From Mycobacterium phage phiGD24-3, in the sequence record MW314854.1: DNA of 54,877 nucleotides; one strand, 5' to 3'. A program made the position numbers and the translations under genes. Shown here in pieces: positions 2,483 to 54,667 of the stretch (position 1 is its first letter; each line of letters starts with the position of its first letter). The notes below the pieces were generated by a model, which did no database searches, was not told the DNA's origin, and saw only the letters and a program-made list of their open reading frames with translations.

Positions 2483-4475
<1,993 letters not shown>

Positions 4476-4489
4476 ACAAAGGATTATAG

Positions 4490-5047
4490 ATGGGCGTTAT
4501 CGGCGAACCACACAATTACCGGGAACGCCTACTCTCTATCCCCGGAGCACCGGGCATCACCGGACCTGCCGGACCAGTGGGACCACTTGGCCCCAAAGGA
4601 GATACCGGACCGGCTGGACCCACGGGGCCAACTGGCCCGGCTGGACCCAAGGGTGACGGACTCACACTAGACGGCACCGCAGACGATTTCGAATCACTTC
4701 CTACTGCCAGCTCCCACACGAACGAGATGTGGGGCGTCACCGACACCGGGCAGTTCTACGTGTCCAACGGGACCACTTGGTTTGAGGTTGAAGTCAAAGG
4801 ACCCCAAGGCGATGTCGGACCCGCTGGACCCAAGGGGGACAAGGGAGATACCGGGCTCACGGGACCTGCGGGACCAACAGGACCCGCTGGAGCGAGTGCC
4901 TGGGGGGACATTACAGGCAAGCCTGCCGTCGTCGTAGGGGCTAACAACAGCGGCGCGGTATCACTCACGCTGTGGGCTGGTACCGAGGCCGAGTACGCAG
5001 CCATCGAAACGAAAGACCCTCTGACGGTTTACGTAAGGACACCGTAG
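4490..5047 (+). CDS. minor tail protein, collagen-like
   Basis: RBS AAAGGA; GXY repeats. Confidence 0.8.
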
Positions 5048-32233: not shown

Positions 32234-34010
32234 GTGAAGCCTCCATCCAGTTGGCCCCAGCCGGTCCGGCAGACACCGGGAACTCGACTCGCTGGCCTCC
32301 TACGGAGGGTTGAAACTTGGTTTCCATTAGGCGTACCAAGTAATCCCGGCACGCTTCCCAGTTCTCACGCGGAACCGAGAACAACACCGCGTCGTGGATC
32401 TGCGCCTTCACGCGGCGCAGGACGTGCGGCGGCATACGCAACAGCGCATCGCACACGATCTCCCGAGTACCGTTCTGGCCCTTCAGGGCCGGGGCCTGCG
32501 TGAAGATCCGGTCTTTCTCAACCCAGAGCTTCCGGCCCCACTCGTTCATCACGTACCCGCGTGTGGCTTCGTCACGGACCCGGTTCTGCCAGTCGACCAA
32601 CGCAACGAACGTAGAATCCATTCCGTCGCAGAACTTCTTGGCCGTCGTGAACGGCAATCCGGTCACCCGAACCAGACCGCCAGGACGACCACCGTAAGAC
32701 CAACCGTGCCCCAACGGCTTCGCCATCTGCCGGTACTTCTTCGGATCGGACTCCACTACTTCACGGCCCCACGCGGCTATCGCGTTGATCATGTGGCCGT
32801 CCGCTCCCGGCTCGAACCGCTCCGCGTACTTACGGTCCCCCGAGTAGGCAGCGACAATACGAGCGTCGGCGTTCGAGTAATCCAGCTCCAACAACACCTC
32901 GTCGTCGGAGTCCGGTACGAAGTACGACTTCTCCACCGCACCTTCACCTCTGGATGTCCAGACCGTCAACCCCGGTTCGGTGGTACTCCACCGACCCGAC
33001 CGTTGGAGCATCGTTATATCCGGGTGTACGAACCCGTCCGGGTGTGTCGAGTCCAACGCCAGTTGAGCCAACGAACGCTGGCCCTTCAGTTCAGCCAGCG
33101 CTTTTCCGAGATCTTCCGCAGACGTGCCTTTGGTCAGCTCAGTAAGAACCTCGCCACCCAACGACAGGTTTCCGGTAGACGTCTTCGTCCAGTCCTTCCG
33201 GGACTTCGGGGTGATCCCGTGATCGGCCAACGCCGCCATGATGGCTTCTTTACCGGCTGTCGTAGCCCACGGGCTCTTACCCTCGGTCGGCAGACCGTAC
33301 TTGGTCTGGAGTTCGGACAAGATCGCCTCACGGCGGACCCGGAGTTCTTCTACGCGGGCTTTGGCTGCCTCTACGTCAACCCGTAAACCGTTGGAGGATA
33401 TGACGGCAGCTCTTGCCGCTATCTCCTGTTCACGCAGCGCGTAGTCGTCCAGCTTGCCCTTCTTCAGAAGCTCTTGGGCCACCACTCGGGACGCTACAAC
33501 GTCACCGATCAGGTACTCCCGATACCGCTCGTCGTCCACCGGGATAGAACCGAACCCGCCGAACTCTTTGGCTAGCGCCTTCAGGTCGTGGGTCTTCCCC
33601 GGTACCCCGAGCTGGTGTGCCTGTTCGTCCAGGCTGAACCACCGCTTCATCTTGTCCGGGGAATTGGCAAGAGCGTTCTTGCCGTGGCGGTTGACGAACA
33701 TGTACGGGGCCGGATTGACCAACGCCGCGTGGGTCCAGGTGTCGTATACCCGTCGCTGTTGGGCTAGTTCTAGCGGTATGTCGGACTTGATACCGAACAC
33801 CGCTCGCAGGTCGAAGGCGTGGATGTTGTGTCCGATTATCCACCGGGCCTTGAGGATCTGGTGTTTGATCTCGTCCAGGTCGGTGGTCAGAACCACCTCG
33901 CCGTCACCCCACGCGTACCCGATCAGCCGTACGAACTCTTCCGGCTCCATCGAGTACATCAGCTCTGCCGAGTGCGTCTCGATGTCGAAAATCAATGTGC
34001 CCTCGGCCAT
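32226..34010 (-). CDS. DNA polymerase I (3'-5' exo + polymerase domains)
   Basis: N-terminal DEDD exonuclease motifs; family A polymerase motifs. Confidence 0.9.
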   Translation of the reverse strand: MAEGTLIFDIETHSAELMYSMEPEEFVRLIGYAWGDGEVVLTTDLDEIKHQILKARWIIGHNIHAFDLRAVFGIKSDIPLELAQQRRVYDTWTHAALVNPAPYMFVNRHGKNALANSPDKMKRWFSLDEQAHQLGVPGKTHDLKALAKEFGGFGSIPVDDERYREYLIGDVVASRVVAQELLKKGKLDDYALREQEIAARAAVISSNGLRVDVEAAKARVEELRVRREAILSELQTKYGLPTEGKSPWATTAGKEAIMAALADHGITPKSRKDWTKTSTGNLSLGGEVLTELTKGTSAEDLGKALAELKGQRSLAQLALDSTHPDGFVHPDITMLQRSGRWSTTEPGLTVWTSRGEGAVEKSYFVPDSDDEVLLELDYSNADARIVAAYSGDRKYAERFEPGADGHMINAIAAWGREVVESDPKKYRQMAKPLGHGWSYGGRPGGLVRVTGLPFTTAKKFCDGMDSTFVALVDWQNRVRDEATRGYVMNEWGRKLWVEKDRIFTQAPALKGQNGTREIVCDALLRMPPHVLRRVKAQIHDAVLFSVPRENWEACRDYLVRLMETKFQPSVGGQRVEFPVSAGPAGANWMEASHE

Positions 34011-41489: not shown

Positions 41490-41713
41490 GAGTCCATGGT
41501 CTCCAAGACCTGCCGGGTACGTGGGTCGATCACCACAACCATCCCCTGCCCCACCCGGAAGCCGGCAGCCGCCAGGATGTCGGCCTGATGAGGTCTAACA
41601 GTAATCGTCATCTCTGGCCCCCCAAGGGCATCGTAGATATCCTCTACCGACTGTGAATCGTTGTAGGTGATGGCCACAACAGCATCTGTACGTCGGGGGT
41701 AGTAAACACTCAT
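41450..41713 (-). CDS. hypothetical protein
   Basis: ORF. Confidence 0.45.
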   Translation of the reverse strand: MSVYYPRRTDAVVAITYNDSQSVEDIYDALGGPEMTITVRPHQADILAAAGFRVGQGMVVVIDPRTRQVLETMDSWDFAEKYSKDGL

Positions 41714-42345
41714 TTCAACCTGTCTTTCAATGCTTCTCGTCCTTCTCTGAGAACGAAGTCGTTAACGTCCGAGCCTTTTGGCATCGGAACAATCCGTGCG
41801 TTCGGTAGATCCGACGCAACGGTGTTGGCGAACTGCATACCGGCGTCATCCCCGTCCGCGAGGATGTACACCGTCTGATACCCGAGGAACGGTTCTCGGA
41901 AATACCGTTGCCACGAAGTGGCACCCGGAACCCCAACCGCTCGGGTACCGCACGACTCGGCGGCGATAGCGTCTAGCTCGCCTTCGGTAATCGCCACCTT
42001 CTCCGCGCCCTTCCACAACGACAACGTGTTGTACAACCGTGGCCGATCCCCCGCGACCGTCATGTACTTACCGTGACCGTGATGTTCGTGTTCTTCGATA
42101 CACCGGAACCGGATAGACGCTACGCCCCACCCGAACTCGTACGATTTACGCAGATACGGAAGGGCCAACATCCCCCGGTACATTTCATGTCCCGCCAAAG
42201 GGTCGTCTACGTACCCGAGTCGGAAGTATGCTTTGTCTTCCGGTTCGTCCACTATCGCCGGTACTGTTAGACCCCGACTCGCCAAATACTCTTCGGCTGG
42301 ACTGCCCTTGAACGACCGGTGGTACTTCTCCGTCGCCTCCCTCAA
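41710..42345 (-). CDS. DNA primase, TOPRIM domain part
   Basis: 'ITEGELDAI' (EGxxD) and 'ILADGDDAG' (DxD). Confidence 0.75.
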   Translation of the reverse strand: MREATEKYHRSFKGSPAEEYLASRGLTVPAIVDEPEDKAYFRLGYVDDPLAGHEMYRGMLALPYLRKSYEFGWGVASIRFRCIEEHEHHGHGKYMTVAGDRPRLYNTLSLWKGAEKVAITEGELDAIAAESCGTRAVGVPGATSWQRYFREPFLGYQTVYILADGDDAGMQFANTVASDLPNARIVPMPKGSDVNDFVLREGREALKDRLK

Positions 42346-42694
42346 GAATTTCTTGGATTCGGCGCTTTGCCTCTGAATAGTTCACCCCCTCACGGGCTTT
42401 CACAATGGCTATCGCATCGCCCTTGGTCCCGCACGCCAGGCAAGAAAACGCGTCGTACCCGTAGTGGACCGCACCCGAAGGGGTTTCGTCCCCGTGGAAC
42501 GGGCACAGACAACGACGCCAACCGGGTCCGGGGTTAGGCGGTGACCAATCCGGGTAGTAGTACAAGATGACTGCGGTTATGGCCAACGATCTAGGACCCT
42601 TCGACCGGGTGGATTTAACAAGTAGTCCTTTATCCGCTCTGCTGTCTGCACGTCGTCGCGGATGTGCCCAAGAAGTTTGTTGCACGTCGAACAC
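42185..42694 (-). CDS. DNA primase, CHC2 zinc-finger part (start uncertain)
   Basis: 'CPFHGDETPS...CLACGTKGD'. Confidence 0.65.
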   Translation of the reverse strand: MFDVQQTSWAHPRRRADSRADKGLLVKSTRSKGPRSLAITAVILYYYPDWSPPNPGPGWRRCLCPFHGDETPSGAVHYGYDAFSCLACGTKGDAIAIVKAREGVNYSEAKRRIQEILEGGDGEVPPVVQGQSSRRVFGESGSNSTGDSGRTGRQSILPTRVRRRPFGGT

Positions 42695-43020
42695 AACAGC
42701 GATCTAACGCATTTCCCGCAGCTGACCGGGCCGTTGCAACACGAGTGATCGTGGTCTACGGACAACCTGCGCGAGGCCCCGGTGGCTCTCTGGCAGATAG
42801 CACACTTGCGACCTTGGGCCTCGTACACCGCCCAATATTGCTCCGGTGACAGTGAATACGTCTTCATCAACCGGGATTCCCAAGCGGTAGAACGGGTCTT
42901 GGCCCGCCTAGCCCGGTGGTGCGAAGCACAACGCGGCCCCGGATTGGGTGCCGGTCGTTTGGTCGTGATGCCTTCGGCCCGACAGTCGACGCAGACGCGG
43001 GGTTTAGCCATCGCACTCAC
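42577..43020 (-). CDS. endonuclease VII (Holliday-junction resolvase)
   Basis: 'CAICQR...VDHDHSCC...C.KCVRSLLCSTCN' motif. Confidence 0.8.
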   Translation of the reverse strand: MSAMAKPRVCVDCRAEGITTKRPAPNPGPRCASHHRARRAKTRSTAWESRLMKTYSLSPEQYWAVYEAQGRKCAICQRATGASRRLSVDHDHSCCNGPVSCGKCVRSLLCSTCNKLLGHIRDDVQTAERIKDYLLNPPGRRVLDRWP

Positions 43021-43228
43021 ACAACAGATTCCACACTTTGTCAGGGCTTCCCAGTTCTTTGTCAGGGCTTCCCAGTTCTTTGTCAGGGCTTCCCAGTTCT
43101 AGGATGACCCGACACCCTTTGTTACGGCAGTGCATTTCTGGTCTGTGCCCGCACCGTTCACATTTCGTGCACGTACAACCCTTAGCGGCGCATCCGTGGG
43201 GTTTGGACGGTCGGTCAGTCAATAGCAC
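43004..43228 (-). CDS. small Cys-rich protein with three tandem ELGSPDK repeats
   Basis: ORF spans the 3x21-bp repeat. Confidence 0.35.
   Translation of the reverse strand: MLLTDRPSKPHGCAAKGCTCTKCERCGHRPEMHCRNKGCRVILELGSPDKELGSPDKELGSPDKVWNLLCECDG
43036..43098. repeat. three perfect tandem copies of 21-bp CTTTGTCAGGGCTTCCCAGTT
   Basis: read directly. Confidence 0.95.
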
Positions 43229-43293
43229 CCACCCCGCAGATCACCAGCACCGCTAGCAGGTACCCACCGGCAACCGTTGCGGCTAAACCGATG

Positions 43294-44427
43294 TCAGCCC
43301 ACATCTGGGAATACCTCGGTATAGGGGCCACCACTCCGAAGCAGCCTCGGGACGACCAGCTTTAAGTCCCTGCCTCGCGTGCCGTTATCGGTACGCCACT
43401 CGCCGTTGAACCAGAATCGCCAACCATTCTGGCCCCTCCATACCGTGCCGTCTCGGGCCTCTTCACAATTCAGGCTCGGAAGTACACGGGGTGTGCGAGA
43501 GGGCTTGTCGCCTCGGTGCCTCTGTATCGGGTCGATGAGATCCAGCCGGTCTGCCGGTTCCTGTTGTGGCTCCAGGTAGTCGTCCCTACGGGATACCCGT
43601 CCAGCGGCAATATCGTCCAGACCGCGCGCCAGAGACTCGCCCGGTTCCTGTTGTGTCCGCCGAACGAACTCCATCGGGTCCGTCTCAAGAAGCTCCACGT
43701 CGTCAGGGCGTAGAGCGTCCTCAACGGTGCCACGTACGACCTTGGGCTTAGCCCTGTCGGGTACCTGTGCGGAACGCTTCTCGGCCTTGTCGAACTCTTG
43801 GCGTAGCCAGCCCCTCGTTTCGCAGGGCGGCCCCTCTTCCGGTTCCTGTTGTGCTGTTGGGTCTGGCGTGAACGTAGGCAGTGTCCCGTCTAGGTTCACC
43901 GTGCCGTGCGGGTCGGCGTCGAACACAGACGGCTCCCGCATCAGCCGCTCAAGTCGCGGCTTATCACCTTCGTGGTATTCGTCCGGATACTCGTCCGGGT
44001 CGTCCGCTTGGCAGTGCTCCGCTAGATCCTGGTGGAAGTACTCTCGTAATTCCTCACGGGACGGTTCCCTCGGGTCGTAGGTCTCACCCCCATCGGTGGT
44101 GGGGCCAGAGCCCACGGCTTCGCCGGGGGTGAAGATGACAGGCCAAGAGTCGGCGTCACGCCCCTCTGGGACCCCCTGACCCGCCGCAAGAAGCTGACGG
44201 TACAGCCACACCCCCGGCTGCGCCGGTTCGACAAACGCGATCCACGCCCCGTCTGGTCGTCGTGCGATGGTGCCAACAGGTGGCCCCTCGGGGATGCTGT
44301 TAGCAGCAGCCAGAAAGGCGTCCAACCAACCCTCATAATCCGGTTTGTACGGGTCGTAGTGCGGGTACGGGCGGGACAGAAACCCGATAATCGCTTTCCG
44401 CTGCGCTTCAGTCGGTTCCAGCTTCAT
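43294..44427 (-). CDS. hypothetical acidic Pro/Glu-rich protein
   Basis: RBS AAGGAG. Confidence 0.6.
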   Translation of the reverse strand: MKLEPTEAQRKAIIGFLSRPYPHYDPYKPDYEGWLDAFLAAANSIPEGPPVGTIARRPDGAWIAFVEPAQPGVWLYRQLLAAGQGVPEGRDADSWPVIFTPGEAVGSGPTTDGGETYDPREPSREELREYFHQDLAEHCQADDPDEYPDEYHEGDKPRLERLMREPSVFDADPHGTVNLDGTLPTFTPDPTAQQEPEEGPPCETRGWLRQEFDKAEKRSAQVPDRAKPKVVRGTVEDALRPDDVELLETDPMEFVRRTQQEPGESLARGLDDIAAGRVSRRDDYLEPQQEPADRLDLIDPIQRHRGDKPSRTPRVLPSLNCEEARDGTVWRGQNGWRFWFNGEWRTDNGTRGRDLKLVVPRLLRSGGPYTEVFPDVG

Positions 44428-44653
44428 AACCCATCTCCTTAGCCAACTCGTCATACGAATCCGCAGCCGCGAGTAGCCACGCTGCGAGTTCACGAGCGCC
44501 CTCGCTGTCGCCTTGATACATCTCCCCGAAAACACCGTCATCTATGAATGGGCGGTGTTGGGACTTCGGTAGCAGTTTTCGGCTCATGTATTGGTATTTG
44601 GCGACATATACCCGGAAGGGTCCGTGGTCTTCCGGCCACCTATCCGTGCTCAT
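44408..44653 (-). CDS. hypothetical protein
   Basis: ORF. Confidence 0.5.
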   Translation of the reverse strand: MSTDRWPEDHGPFRVYVAKYQYMSRKLLPKSQHRPFIDDGVFGEMYQGDSEGARELAAWLLAAADSYDELAKEMGYEAGTD

Positions 44654-54457: not shown

Positions 54458-54667
54458 TTATCGGTAGTTCTCCGATGTCACGTAGTACACCGCGCCTGTG
54501 TCGGGGTCGGTCCAGTTGCACGGTTTCCCGTCCGTATTCCCGTCCTCGTATTGGCATACGGGCAATTGGTCTGCGTGTGCTGTTGCTTCTACCGCAGTGG
54601 GCAGTCCTACCCAGAACGCACCAACGGTGAGTGTAGCGAGGGCCAGTTGCTTCCATGTGTTTGACAT
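54458..54667 (-). CDS. small secreted protein (69 aa; signal peptide, 2 Cys), probably leaderless
   Basis: 'MSNTWKQLALATLTVGAFWVGLPTAVEATAHA'; ATG at the predicted +1 of the promoter at 54674-54702. Confidence 0.55.
   Translation of the reverse strand: MSNTWKQLALATLTVGAFWVGLPTAVEATAHADQLPVCQYEDGNTDGKPCNWTDPDTGAVYYVTSENYR

What the first reader, a model, noticed from the sequence alone, without database searches (positions are those of the whole stretch)
43004..43228. Perfect 3x21-bp tandem repeat embedded in a small Cys-rich ORF between endonuclease VII and replication genes
CTTTGTCAGGGCTTCCCAGTT x3 (43036-43098) is perfect at the DNA level. It is read in frame as ELGSPDK x3 at the C-terminus of a 74-aa Cys-rich minus-strand ORF that overlaps the endoVII start. 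Perfect DNA-level identity suggests either recent expansion or a cis-acting iteron function (origin or partition-like) near the primase/helicase genes, rather than a purely protein-level repeat.
Basis: seen in the sequence. Interest (0 to 1): 0.6.

Follow-up and report, generated by a model that had tools for sequence, protein, structure and literature searches.

The report
Variable in-frame repeat in phage gene
The perfect 3x21-bp repeat is a recently expanded, copy-number-variable stretch inside a real but uncharacterised small cysteine-rich phage gene, and the evidence is against it being a replication origin, so it is ordinary.

Summary
CTTTGTCAGGGCTTCCCAGTT occurs 3.1 times, perfectly, at 43036-43100, and is read as ELGSPDK x3 in a 74-aa (GenBank: 72-aa) minus-strand ORF that overlaps the endonuclease VII start by 8 nt. 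The window is the Mycobacterium abscessus phage phiGD24-3 (cluster MabJ).

The ORF is a real gene. Six distant homologs (39-56% identity in the alignments) keep an invariant His/Cys pattern; none has the repeat. The spacing between the flanking invariant residues is 10-12 aa in the homologs and 12 aa in a single-copy allele.

Four otherwise identical alleles carry 1, 2, 3 and 3 copies. The repeat therefore varies in copy number among these alleles while no base in the rest of the ORF differs, which is the pattern expected of slippage. It lengthens a loop between the Cys-rich core and a C-terminal LLCxC motif.

The iteron/origin reading is not supported:
- Three relatives lack the ORF and repeat completely, yet keep partly very similar replication-module proteins (primase C-terminal ORF 91-97%; T46-3 three small proteins 100%).
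- There is no AT-rich region nearby.
- The unit is not this phage's stoperator motif, and its DNA fold is no better than shuffled sequence.

The function of the small, probably metal-binding, protein family remains unknown.

The parts
43036..43100 (-). Perfect tandem repeat, 21-bp unit (plus strand CTTTGTCAGGGCTTCCCAGTT), 3 full copies plus a 2-bp 'CT' continuation. In the coding phase (43037-43099) it encodes ELGSPDK x3, residues 44-64 of the 74-aa product.
   Evidence: TRF; pattern search; translation. Copy number is 3 in the window and L006, 2 in prophiGD43A-4 and 1 in L007.
43004..43228 (-). Small Cys-rich gene: 74 aa from GTG 43228, or 72 aa from TTG 43222 as annotated in GenBank (phiGD24-3 gp66 / prophiGD24-3 gp28, hypothetical protein).
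   Evidence: ORF list. Exact-sequence look-up finds the 72-aa form under QPO17436.1 and QSM02275.1 and the 67-aa 2-copy form under QSM04409.1. Distant homologs have invariant H11, C13, C18, C20, C26, G38, C39, I42 and L-C. Relatives without the gene align up to 43007 and resume at 43228.
43100..43228 (-). N-terminal conserved Cys/His-rich core (residues 1-43), presumed metal binding: HxC-x4-CxC-x2-C-x2-CGH-x4-HC-x4-C.
   Evidence: Alignments A3 and A4. Weak, non-significant resemblance of CxxCG...C to the zinc ribbon of ribosomal protein uS14 type Z (E=0.14). No Pfam, PHROG or PDB family.
43004..43036 (-). C-terminal segment VWNLLCECDG plus the stop codon. It contains the family-conserved LLCxC motif and overlaps the endonuclease VII start.
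   Evidence: Alignments A3 and A4; sequence.
42577..43011 (-). Endonuclease VII gene (144 aa from ATG 43011), immediately downstream with an 8-nt overlap to the Cys-rich gene.
   Evidence: Pfam PF02945, E=1.7e-23; annotation of the GD43A-4 ortholog.
43215..43304 (-). Unannotated 29-aa hydrophobic micro-ORF (MWADIGLAATVAGGYLLAVLVICGVGAID), immediately upstream. Its stop overlaps the start of the Cys-rich gene. It marks the conserved upstream boundary of the gene-sized indel.
   Evidence: The ORF is intact, with a conserved upstream CCGAGGT, in 7 loci. The T46-3 copy differs by both synonymous and amino-acid changes.

Best explanation
The repeat is a young, in-frame, variable-number tandem repeat inside a genuine protein-coding gene of phage phiGD24-3. 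The gene encodes a small Cys/His-rich, probably zinc-binding, protein of a rare and uncharacterised family found in mycobacterial and other actinophage-like contigs. In its ancestral single-copy form, the 21 bases encode part of the poorly conserved loop between the last conserved core segment (GCRVIL) and the C-terminal LLCxC motif. A first duplication, bounded by only a 2-bp 'CT' microhomology, created a substrate for slipped-strand mispairing or unequal recombination during replication. Gains and losses of whole 21-bp units then produced alleles with 1, 2 and 3 copies. Because 21 is a multiple of 3, every allele keeps the reading frame, the C-terminal Cys pair and the translationally coupled start of endonuclease VII. 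The added heptads (ELGSPDK: Gly/Ser/Pro plus charged residues) just lengthen a flexible loop. The perfect DNA identity reflects how recent the expansion is; it need not mean selection for a DNA-binding site. Shown here: the repeat, the copy-number series, the identity of the flanks, the conservation of the protein family, and absence from relatives that share parts of the replication module. Inferred: the slippage mechanism, loop flexibility and tolerance, and metal binding.
For: (1) Four alleles differ only in copy number (3, 3, 2, 1). There are no substitutions across the rest of the ORF, while the flanking genes carry SNPs.
(2) phmmer against 1.84 billion representatives finds six short homologs of the N-terminal core (E 5e-11 to 6e-4; 39-56% identity in alignments A3-A5). 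A profile search recovers the same set (E 1e-21 to 1e-25). H11, C13, C18, C20, C26, G38, C39, I42 and L-C are invariant.
(3) None of the homologs has a repeat. The spacing between the invariant Ile and the invariant Leu-Cys is 10-12 residues in them, 12 in the 1-copy allele, and 19 and 26 in the 2- and 3-copy alleles.
(4) The gene is tightly packed and overlaps both neighbours: an 8-nt overlap with the endonuclease VII ATG, and the upstream micro-ORF's stop lies inside its 5' end.
(5) The same 3-copy protein is recorded for both the integrated prophage and the lytically propagated phage (PMC8092298). So the 3-copy allele is compatible with a viable phage.
(6) The gene is independently annotated as a CDS in GenBank.
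Against: There is no direct evidence that the ORF is expressed. Codon-position GC bias in this short ORF is weak: GC3 is 0.57-0.59, against 0.66-0.78 in neighbouring genes. Only four alleles are known, so the direction of change (expansion versus contraction) rests on the outgroup loop length. Both AlphaFold models are of low confidence (pLDDT 45), so the 'loop' assignment rests on alignment variability. A dual role, coding plus cis-acting, cannot be formally excluded by sequence analysis.
Confidence: 0.85

Rival explanations
1. Iteron-type replication origin, like lambda ori inside gene O. The three 21-bp copies, spaced two helical turns apart, would be binding sites for a phage initiator that recruits the nearby DnaB-like helicase and primase. 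The coding frame would be incidental or dual-use.
For: There are three direct repeats of iteron-like length (21 bp) in the replication-gene block. Lambda's origin iterons lie inside a coding sequence (established knowledge).
Against: prophiT46-3, prophiBWHA-1 and prophiT49-3 lack the whole 43008-43227 segment, yet they keep parts of the same module. The primase C-terminal ORF is 91-97% identical in all three. In T46-3 the 111-, 51- and 81-aa proteins are 100% identical, and the 89 helicase residues held in the locus are 98.9% identical. Other parts of the module are diverged: primase N-terminal ORF 68-82%, endonuclease VII 52-64%, the 415-aa protein 41-62%. L007 has a single copy and GD43A-4 two. 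No AT-rich unwinding region is present: 100-bp-window GC is at least 0.52 between 42550 and 44500. No recognisable initiator is adjacent. Blastn at E<=1 finds no tandem copy of the unit in any other phage record.
Confidence: 0.03
2. A regulatory array for a DNA-binding protein: repressor stoperators as in cluster A phages, a partition centromere, or autoregulatory sites for the Cys-rich protein itself. Copy number would tune regulation.
For: MabJ phages are organised like cluster A mycobacteriophages (PMC8092301). The genome carries a dispersed asymmetric motif, GGYCGTATGTCAAG, with 11 perfect copies, mostly in one orientation. The unit contains TGTCAGG, which resembles the TGTCAAG end of that motif.
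Against: The unit is more than 3 mismatches from the 14-bp stoperator consensus and is not returned by the 3-mismatch search. MabJ prophages integrate with a serine integrase, and no plasmid-type prophages were found (PMC8092301), so a centromere is not expected. The unit has no good internal dyad symmetry, and its single-strand fold is no better than shuffled sequence (z=-0.25). Copy number 1 and complete absence in relatives argue against an essential site.
Confidence: 0.04
3. The ORF is not a gene. The segment would be non-coding filler or a remnant, and the repeat a neutral minisatellite in an intergenic insertion.
For: GC3 bias is weak. The family is very rare, with 7 clusters among about 5.8 billion proteins. 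No Pfam or PHROG family matches. Relatives do without the segment.
Against: Homologs at 39-56% identity keep eight or more invariant Cys/His/Gly positions and a similar length of 62-74 aa. This is not expected of non-coding DNA. All homologs are called genes inside tightly packed same-strand phage gene arrays. The start and stop overlap the neighbouring genes in the manner of translationally coupled phage genes.
Confidence: 0.06

Closest known systems
Coding variable-number tandem repeats (minisatellites) in mycobacterial genomes, such as the MIRU-VNTR typing loci and in-frame repeats in M. tuberculosis genes
   Same: Head-to-tail perfect copies of a unit of tens of bp. Copy number differs between otherwise near-identical strains. 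The unit length is a multiple of 3, so the frame is kept. The presumed mechanism is replication slippage or unequal recombination. Rapid change of tandem-repeat copy number in M. tuberculosis is described in PMC12817950 (title and abstract only).
   Different: This one lies in a temperate phage gene rather than a chromosomal locus. Only 1-3 copies have been seen. No phenotype is known.
Iteron origins (phage lambda ori within gene O; plasmid iterons of P1, F, RK2)
   Same: Direct repeats of about 20 bp, embedded in a coding region near replication genes.
   Different: Iteron arrays are conserved among replicons that use the same initiator, are usually imperfect copies around a conserved core, and adjoin an AT-rich unwinding element and an initiator gene. 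Here the array varies from 0 to 3 copies among relatives that share parts of the replication module. The copies are perfect, there is no AT-rich element, and no initiator is recognisable.
Cluster A mycobacteriophage stoperators (L5 gp71 / Bxb1 gp69 13-bp asymmetric sites)
   Same: The genome is cluster-A-like and carries its own dispersed stoperator-type motif ending in TGTCAAG. The repeat unit contains a similar heptamer, TGTCAGG, in the same orientation.
   Different: The unit differs from the 14-bp consensus at more than 3 positions. Stoperators are dispersed single sites rather than tandem arrays.
Small zinc-ribbon or zinc-knuckle proteins (for example the CxxC...CxxC ribbon of ribosomal protein uS14 type Z)
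   Same: Short length, a CxxCG knuckle, and many conserved Cys/His residues.
   Different: The match is not significant (E=0.14). The second CxxC is not conserved. The family has its own pattern, HxC-x4-9-CxC-x2-C-x2-CGH-x4-HC-x4-C...LLCxC, and matches no Pfam model or PDB chain.

Membership tests
Coding VNTR / minisatellite | Head-to-tail copies of one unit with high identity | tested here: met
   3.1 copies, 100% identity, no indels.
Coding VNTR / minisatellite | Copy number polymorphic among otherwise near-identical alleles | tested here: met
   1 (L007), 2 (prophiGD43A-4), 3 (window, L006). The rest of the ORF is 100% identical.
Coding VNTR / minisatellite | Unit length a multiple of 3 within a real coding sequence, so all alleles stay in frame | tested here: met
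   21 bp = 7 codons. The 60-, 67- and 74-aa products keep the C-terminal LLCEC motif. Coding status is supported by conserved homologs.
Coding VNTR / minisatellite | Homologs outside the lineage have the unit once or not at all | tested here: met
   Six distant homologs have no repeat. Ile-to-LeuCys spacing is 10-12 aa in them, against 12 aa in the 1-copy allele.
Iteron-type replication origin | Array of three or more direct repeats of about 17-22 bp | tested here: met
   3 x 21 bp.
Iteron-type replication origin | Array conserved in relatives that use the same replication proteins | tested here: not met
   The array is absent from T46-3, BWHA-1 and T49-3. These share the primase C-terminal ORF at 91-97%, and T46-3 shares three small proteins at 100% and a helicase C-terminal segment at 98.9%. 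Other module proteins are more diverged (primase N-terminal ORF 68-82%). L007 has a single copy.
Iteron-type replication origin | Adjacent AT-rich DNA-unwinding element | tested here: not met
   The lowest 100-bp GC between 42550 and 44500 is 0.52.
Iteron-type replication origin | Cognate initiator (Rep/O-like) encoded nearby and binding the repeats | tested here: inconclusive
   No initiator domain was found in neighbouring ORFs by Pfam or PHROGs. The 415-aa neighbour has unknown function. Binding cannot be tested with these tools.
Cluster A-type stoperator | Match to the genome's own 13-14-bp asymmetric repressor-site consensus | tested here: not met
   Consensus GGYCGTATGTCAAG (11 perfect sites). 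The repeat unit is not recovered with up to 3 mismatches.
Partition centromere (parS) | Repeat array linked to parA/parB in an extrachromosomal prophage | not tested
   I did not scan for parAB here. The literature states that MabJ prophages integrate by serine integrase and that no plasmid-type prophages were found (PMC8092301).
Zinc-ribbon / zinc-finger protein | Conserved Cys/His ligand pattern | tested here: met
   Invariant H11, C13, C18, C20, C26, C39 and C70 across 8 sequences.
Zinc-ribbon / zinc-finger protein | Significant match to a described zinc-binding family or fold | tested here: not met
   No Pfam, PHROG or PDB profile hit. Best match is uS14 type Z at E=0.14. AlphaFold pLDDT of 45 is too low for a fold search.

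The most novel reading that the evidence does not exclude
The most novel reading not excluded is that the loop-length polymorphism is functional, not neutral. On this reading the Cys-rich protein belongs to an undescribed family of small metal-binding actinophage proteins that engages a host or phage partner, for example a defence or replication factor. Gain or loss of ELGSPDK heptads, between the core and the C-terminal Cys pair, would tune or switch that interaction, giving the phage a fast-mutating contingency locus. A weaker variant is that the array also serves as a DNA site bound by the protein it encodes.
Probability: 0.07. Interest if true: 0.5.

Novelty: new member of a known kind. 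Interest (0 to 1): 0.2.

Why it matters
It matters little for replication biology, because the candidate origin does not hold up. There are three modest points of value:
- It documents a fast-evolving in-frame repeat that could serve as a strain marker for MabJ prophages of M. abscessus, a clinically important host. phiGD24-3 is one of the few phages that grow lytically on M. abscessus.
- It shows that an ORF annotated only as 'hypothetical' belongs to a conserved, very rare Cys/His-rich protein family with no described function. That family is a defined target for biochemical work.
- It is a reminder that perfect tandem repeats near replication genes are not in themselves evidence of iterons.

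Tried and rejected
- **Iteron origin.** Rejected on comparative grounds: the array is absent or single-copy in relatives that share parts of the replication module, and there is no AT-rich element.
- **Stoperator array.** I derived the phage's own motif from k-mer counts. The unit is not within 3 mismatches of it.
- **Structured DNA or RNA.** The DNA fold has z=-0.25, and there is no Rfam match at E<=1 in 42500-43800.
- **A fourth partial copy.** The 13-mer GCTTCCCAGTTCT at 32353 lies inside DNA polymerase I in another reading frame, so it is chance.
- **Function from homology.** Pfam, PHROGs, PDB sequence and PDB profile searches gave nothing significant.
- **Structure.** Two AlphaFold runs, on the 74-aa protein and on the repeat-free homolog P0003, both gave pLDDT of about 45. 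No fold search was attempted.
- **More alleles.** The exact unit in one-genome-per-species contigs gave a single lone 21-mer in a Methylobacillus MAG, against about 0.3 expected by chance. Two metagenome scans found nothing. Exact-sequence look-ups of 0-, 4- and 5-copy proteins found nothing. tblastn of the window protein and two homologs against 50,697 phage records found only prophiGD43A-4.
- **Profile-based locus search.** This failed because the alignment had no sufficiently conserved stretch.
- **Codon-position GC.** The ORF is too short and the bias too weak to be decisive.

Full report
**Observation.** The repeat is real and is as described. Tandem Repeats Finder reports one array at 43036-43100 with period 21, 3.1 copies, 100% matches and no indels. 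A search for the unit CTTTGTCAGGGCTTCCCAGTT allowing 3 mismatches finds only these three copies, and none in 100 shuffles. On the minus strand, ORF 43004-43228 reads MLLTDRPSKPHGCAAKGCTCTKCERCGHRPEMHCRNKGCRVIL(ELGSPDK)x3VWNLLCECDG. Its TAA stop at 43004-43006 overlaps by 8 nt the ATG (43009-43011) of a gene with a strong Endonuclease_7 domain (E=1.7e-23). The repeat is followed by ten residues, so it is near the C-terminus but not at it.

**Identity of the window.** The best database relative is Mycobacterium phage prophiGD43A-4, at 97.7% over 1.3 kb. An exact-sequence look-up shows that the 72-aa TTG-start version of the ORF is the annotated hypothetical protein of phiGD24-3 (gp66) and prophiGD24-3 (gp28). 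phiGD24-3 is listed at 54,877 bp, the length of the window. It belongs to cluster MabJ and was isolated as a spontaneously released, lytically propagating phage of M. abscessus (PMC8092298). MabJ prophages are organised like cluster A mycobacteriophages and integrate with a serine integrase (PMC8092301).

**Copy-number variation.**
- prophiGD43A-4 has the same ORF with two copies, annotated as gene 29 at 67 aa.
- Exact searches of IMG/VR found two further carriers: L006 with three copies and L007 with one.
- In a four-way alignment the whole ORF outside the repeat is identical in all four, while the flanking genes carry substitutions.
- Copy number therefore differs among these alleles while no base in the rest of the ORF does, which is the pattern expected of slippage at a tandem repeat.
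- The array is bounded by only a 2-bp 'CT' microhomology.

**Is the ORF a gene?** A word-indexed search found only the GD43A-4 ortholog. An exhaustive phmmer search of 1.84 billion representatives found six short proteins matching residues 6-52 (E from 5e-11 to 6e-4). The other hits in that search matched only the repeat region and are low-complexity look-alikes. A profile search recovered the same seven clusters and no more. The alignments show invariant H11, C13, C18, C20, C26, G38, C39, I42 and a C-terminal L-C, at 39-56% overall identity. That pattern is what purifying selection on a metal-binding mini-protein would produce, and non-coding DNA would not produce it. The homologs lie in dense same-strand arrays of small genes with actinophage markers (WhiB, HNH/NUMOD4, Mycophage_Gp41, Gp80). 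They have no constant link to endonuclease VII or primase. One of these contigs shares DNA with an M. abscessus prophage.

**Where the repeat sits in the protein.** None of the homologs contains a repeat. The distance between the invariant Ile (CRVI) and the invariant Leu-Cys is 10-12 residues in the homologs and 12 in the single-copy allele. It is 19 and 26 in the two- and three-copy alleles. One copy is therefore the ancestral state, and the repeat lengthens the least conserved loop of the protein. A low-confidence AlphaFold model of the repeat-free homolog places this segment at the turn of a beta-hairpin. At pLDDT 45 this is only a hint.

**Test of the iteron/origin idea.** Three relatives (prophiBWHA-1, prophiT46-3, prophiT49-3) lack the ORF entirely. 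Their alignments to the window stop at 43007 and resume at 43228, so the indel is exactly gene-sized. These phages still share parts of the replication module with the window:
- In T46-3 the 111-, 51- and 81-aa proteins are 100% identical. The 89 helicase residues held in the locus are 98.9% identical, and the primase C-terminal ORF is 94%.
- In BWHA-1 the primase C-terminal ORF is 97% identical and the helicase segment 91%.
- Other proteins of the module are more diverged: primase N-terminal ORF 68-82%, endonuclease VII 52-64%, and the 415-aa protein 41-62%.

An origin used by shared replication proteins should not be absent from these relatives or single-copy in others. In addition, no AT-rich stretch lies nearby (100-bp GC is at least 0.52 between 42550 and 44500). 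No initiator-like domain is adjacent. The unit occurs nowhere else in the genome. No other phage record has it in tandem.

**Test of the stoperator idea.** Because the genome is cluster-A-like, I derived its dispersed repressor-site motif from k-mer counts. The motif is GGYCGTATGTCAAG, with 11 perfect sites, nearly all in one orientation in the right arm. The repeat unit contains TGTCAGG but is more than 3 mismatches from the 14-bp consensus. It is not a stoperator.

**Other checks.**
- The array has no unusual single-strand fold (z=-0.25).
- No Rfam family matches at E<=1 between 42500 and 43800.
- A 13-mer of the unit at 32353 lies in DNA polymerase I in another reading frame and is a chance match.
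- Codon-position GC in the short ORF is only weakly biased. The argument that the ORF is coding therefore rests on family conservation and gene packing.

**Conclusion.** The finding is a young, in-frame, variable-number tandem repeat in a genuine but uncharacterised small Cys/His-rich phage gene. It most likely arose and varies by replication slippage, and is tolerated because it lengthens a flexible loop while preserving the frame, the C-terminal Cys pair and the coupled start of endonuclease VII. Confidence is about 0.85. The iteron and regulatory-site readings are each given below 0.05. What the protein does is unknown. The best guess, by inference only, is a small zinc-binding module that interacts with nucleic acid or with a protein partner during early or replication-phase gene expression. 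Novelty: a new member of a known kind. Interest: low.

Noticed in passing
window 43215-43304 (-): An unannotated 29-aa hydrophobic micro-ORF (MWADIGLAATVAGGYLLAVLVICGVGAID) lies between the 415-aa gene and the Cys-rich gene. It is intact (29-30 aa), with a conserved upstream CCGAGGT, in all seven related loci examined. The most divergent copy (prophiT46-3) differs by both synonymous and amino-acid changes. It falls in the unannotated 'gap' of the GenBank records of prophiGD43A-4 and prophiBWHA-1. It is probably a real single-pass membrane peptide gene.
   Followed up: partly
window 19741, 31908, 39117, 40884, 44736, 45158, 46839, 53139, 54191, 54307, 54689 (14-bp sites); also 54660 (-): A dispersed asymmetric motif, GGYCGTATGTCAAG, has 11 perfect copies, ten of them on the plus strand in the right arm. 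One more copy with a single mismatch forms an inverted pair at 54660/54689. This looks like the cluster-A-type stoperator/operator set of this phage.
   Followed up: partly
window 41710-42345 and 42185-42694 (-): The primase is split into two overlapping ORFs: the CHC2 zinc finger in one and the Toprim domain in the other, with a 161-nt overlap in different frames. Both are annotated separately as 'DNA primase' in relatives. This could be a programmed frameshift or a genuinely split primase.
   Followed up: no
window 42999-43005 and 43198-43204: A 7-bp direct repeat, GGGGTTT, brackets most of the Cys-rich gene module. Relatives lacking the gene have one copy at the endonuclease VII start. The N-terminus of the Cys-rich protein (TDRPSKPHGC) resembles the endonuclease VII N-terminus of those relatives (MTRPKPRVC). 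This suggests the gene entered or left by recombination at this microhomology.
   Followed up: partly
window 43294-44541 (-): The 415-aa hypothetical protein next to the locus is highly mosaic among relatives: 99%, 92%, 62%, 54% (partial alignment), 42% and 41% amino-acid identity. Short islands of near-identical DNA are interspersed. No Pfam or PHROG family matches.
   Followed up: no
window 2890-3090 and 4588-4650: Imperfect tandem repeats with periods of 36/72 and 27 bp (70-74% matches). Their G-rich consensus units look collagen-like (Gly-X-Y), presumably in a tail-fibre-type gene.
   Followed up: no
L005 5625-5645 (Methylobacillus MAG CAYUJU010000033.1): A single exact copy of the 21-mer lies in an unrelated proteobacterial metagenome-assembled genome. 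About 0.3 such hits are expected by chance in 596 Gb, so I treated it as coincidence.
   Followed up: no
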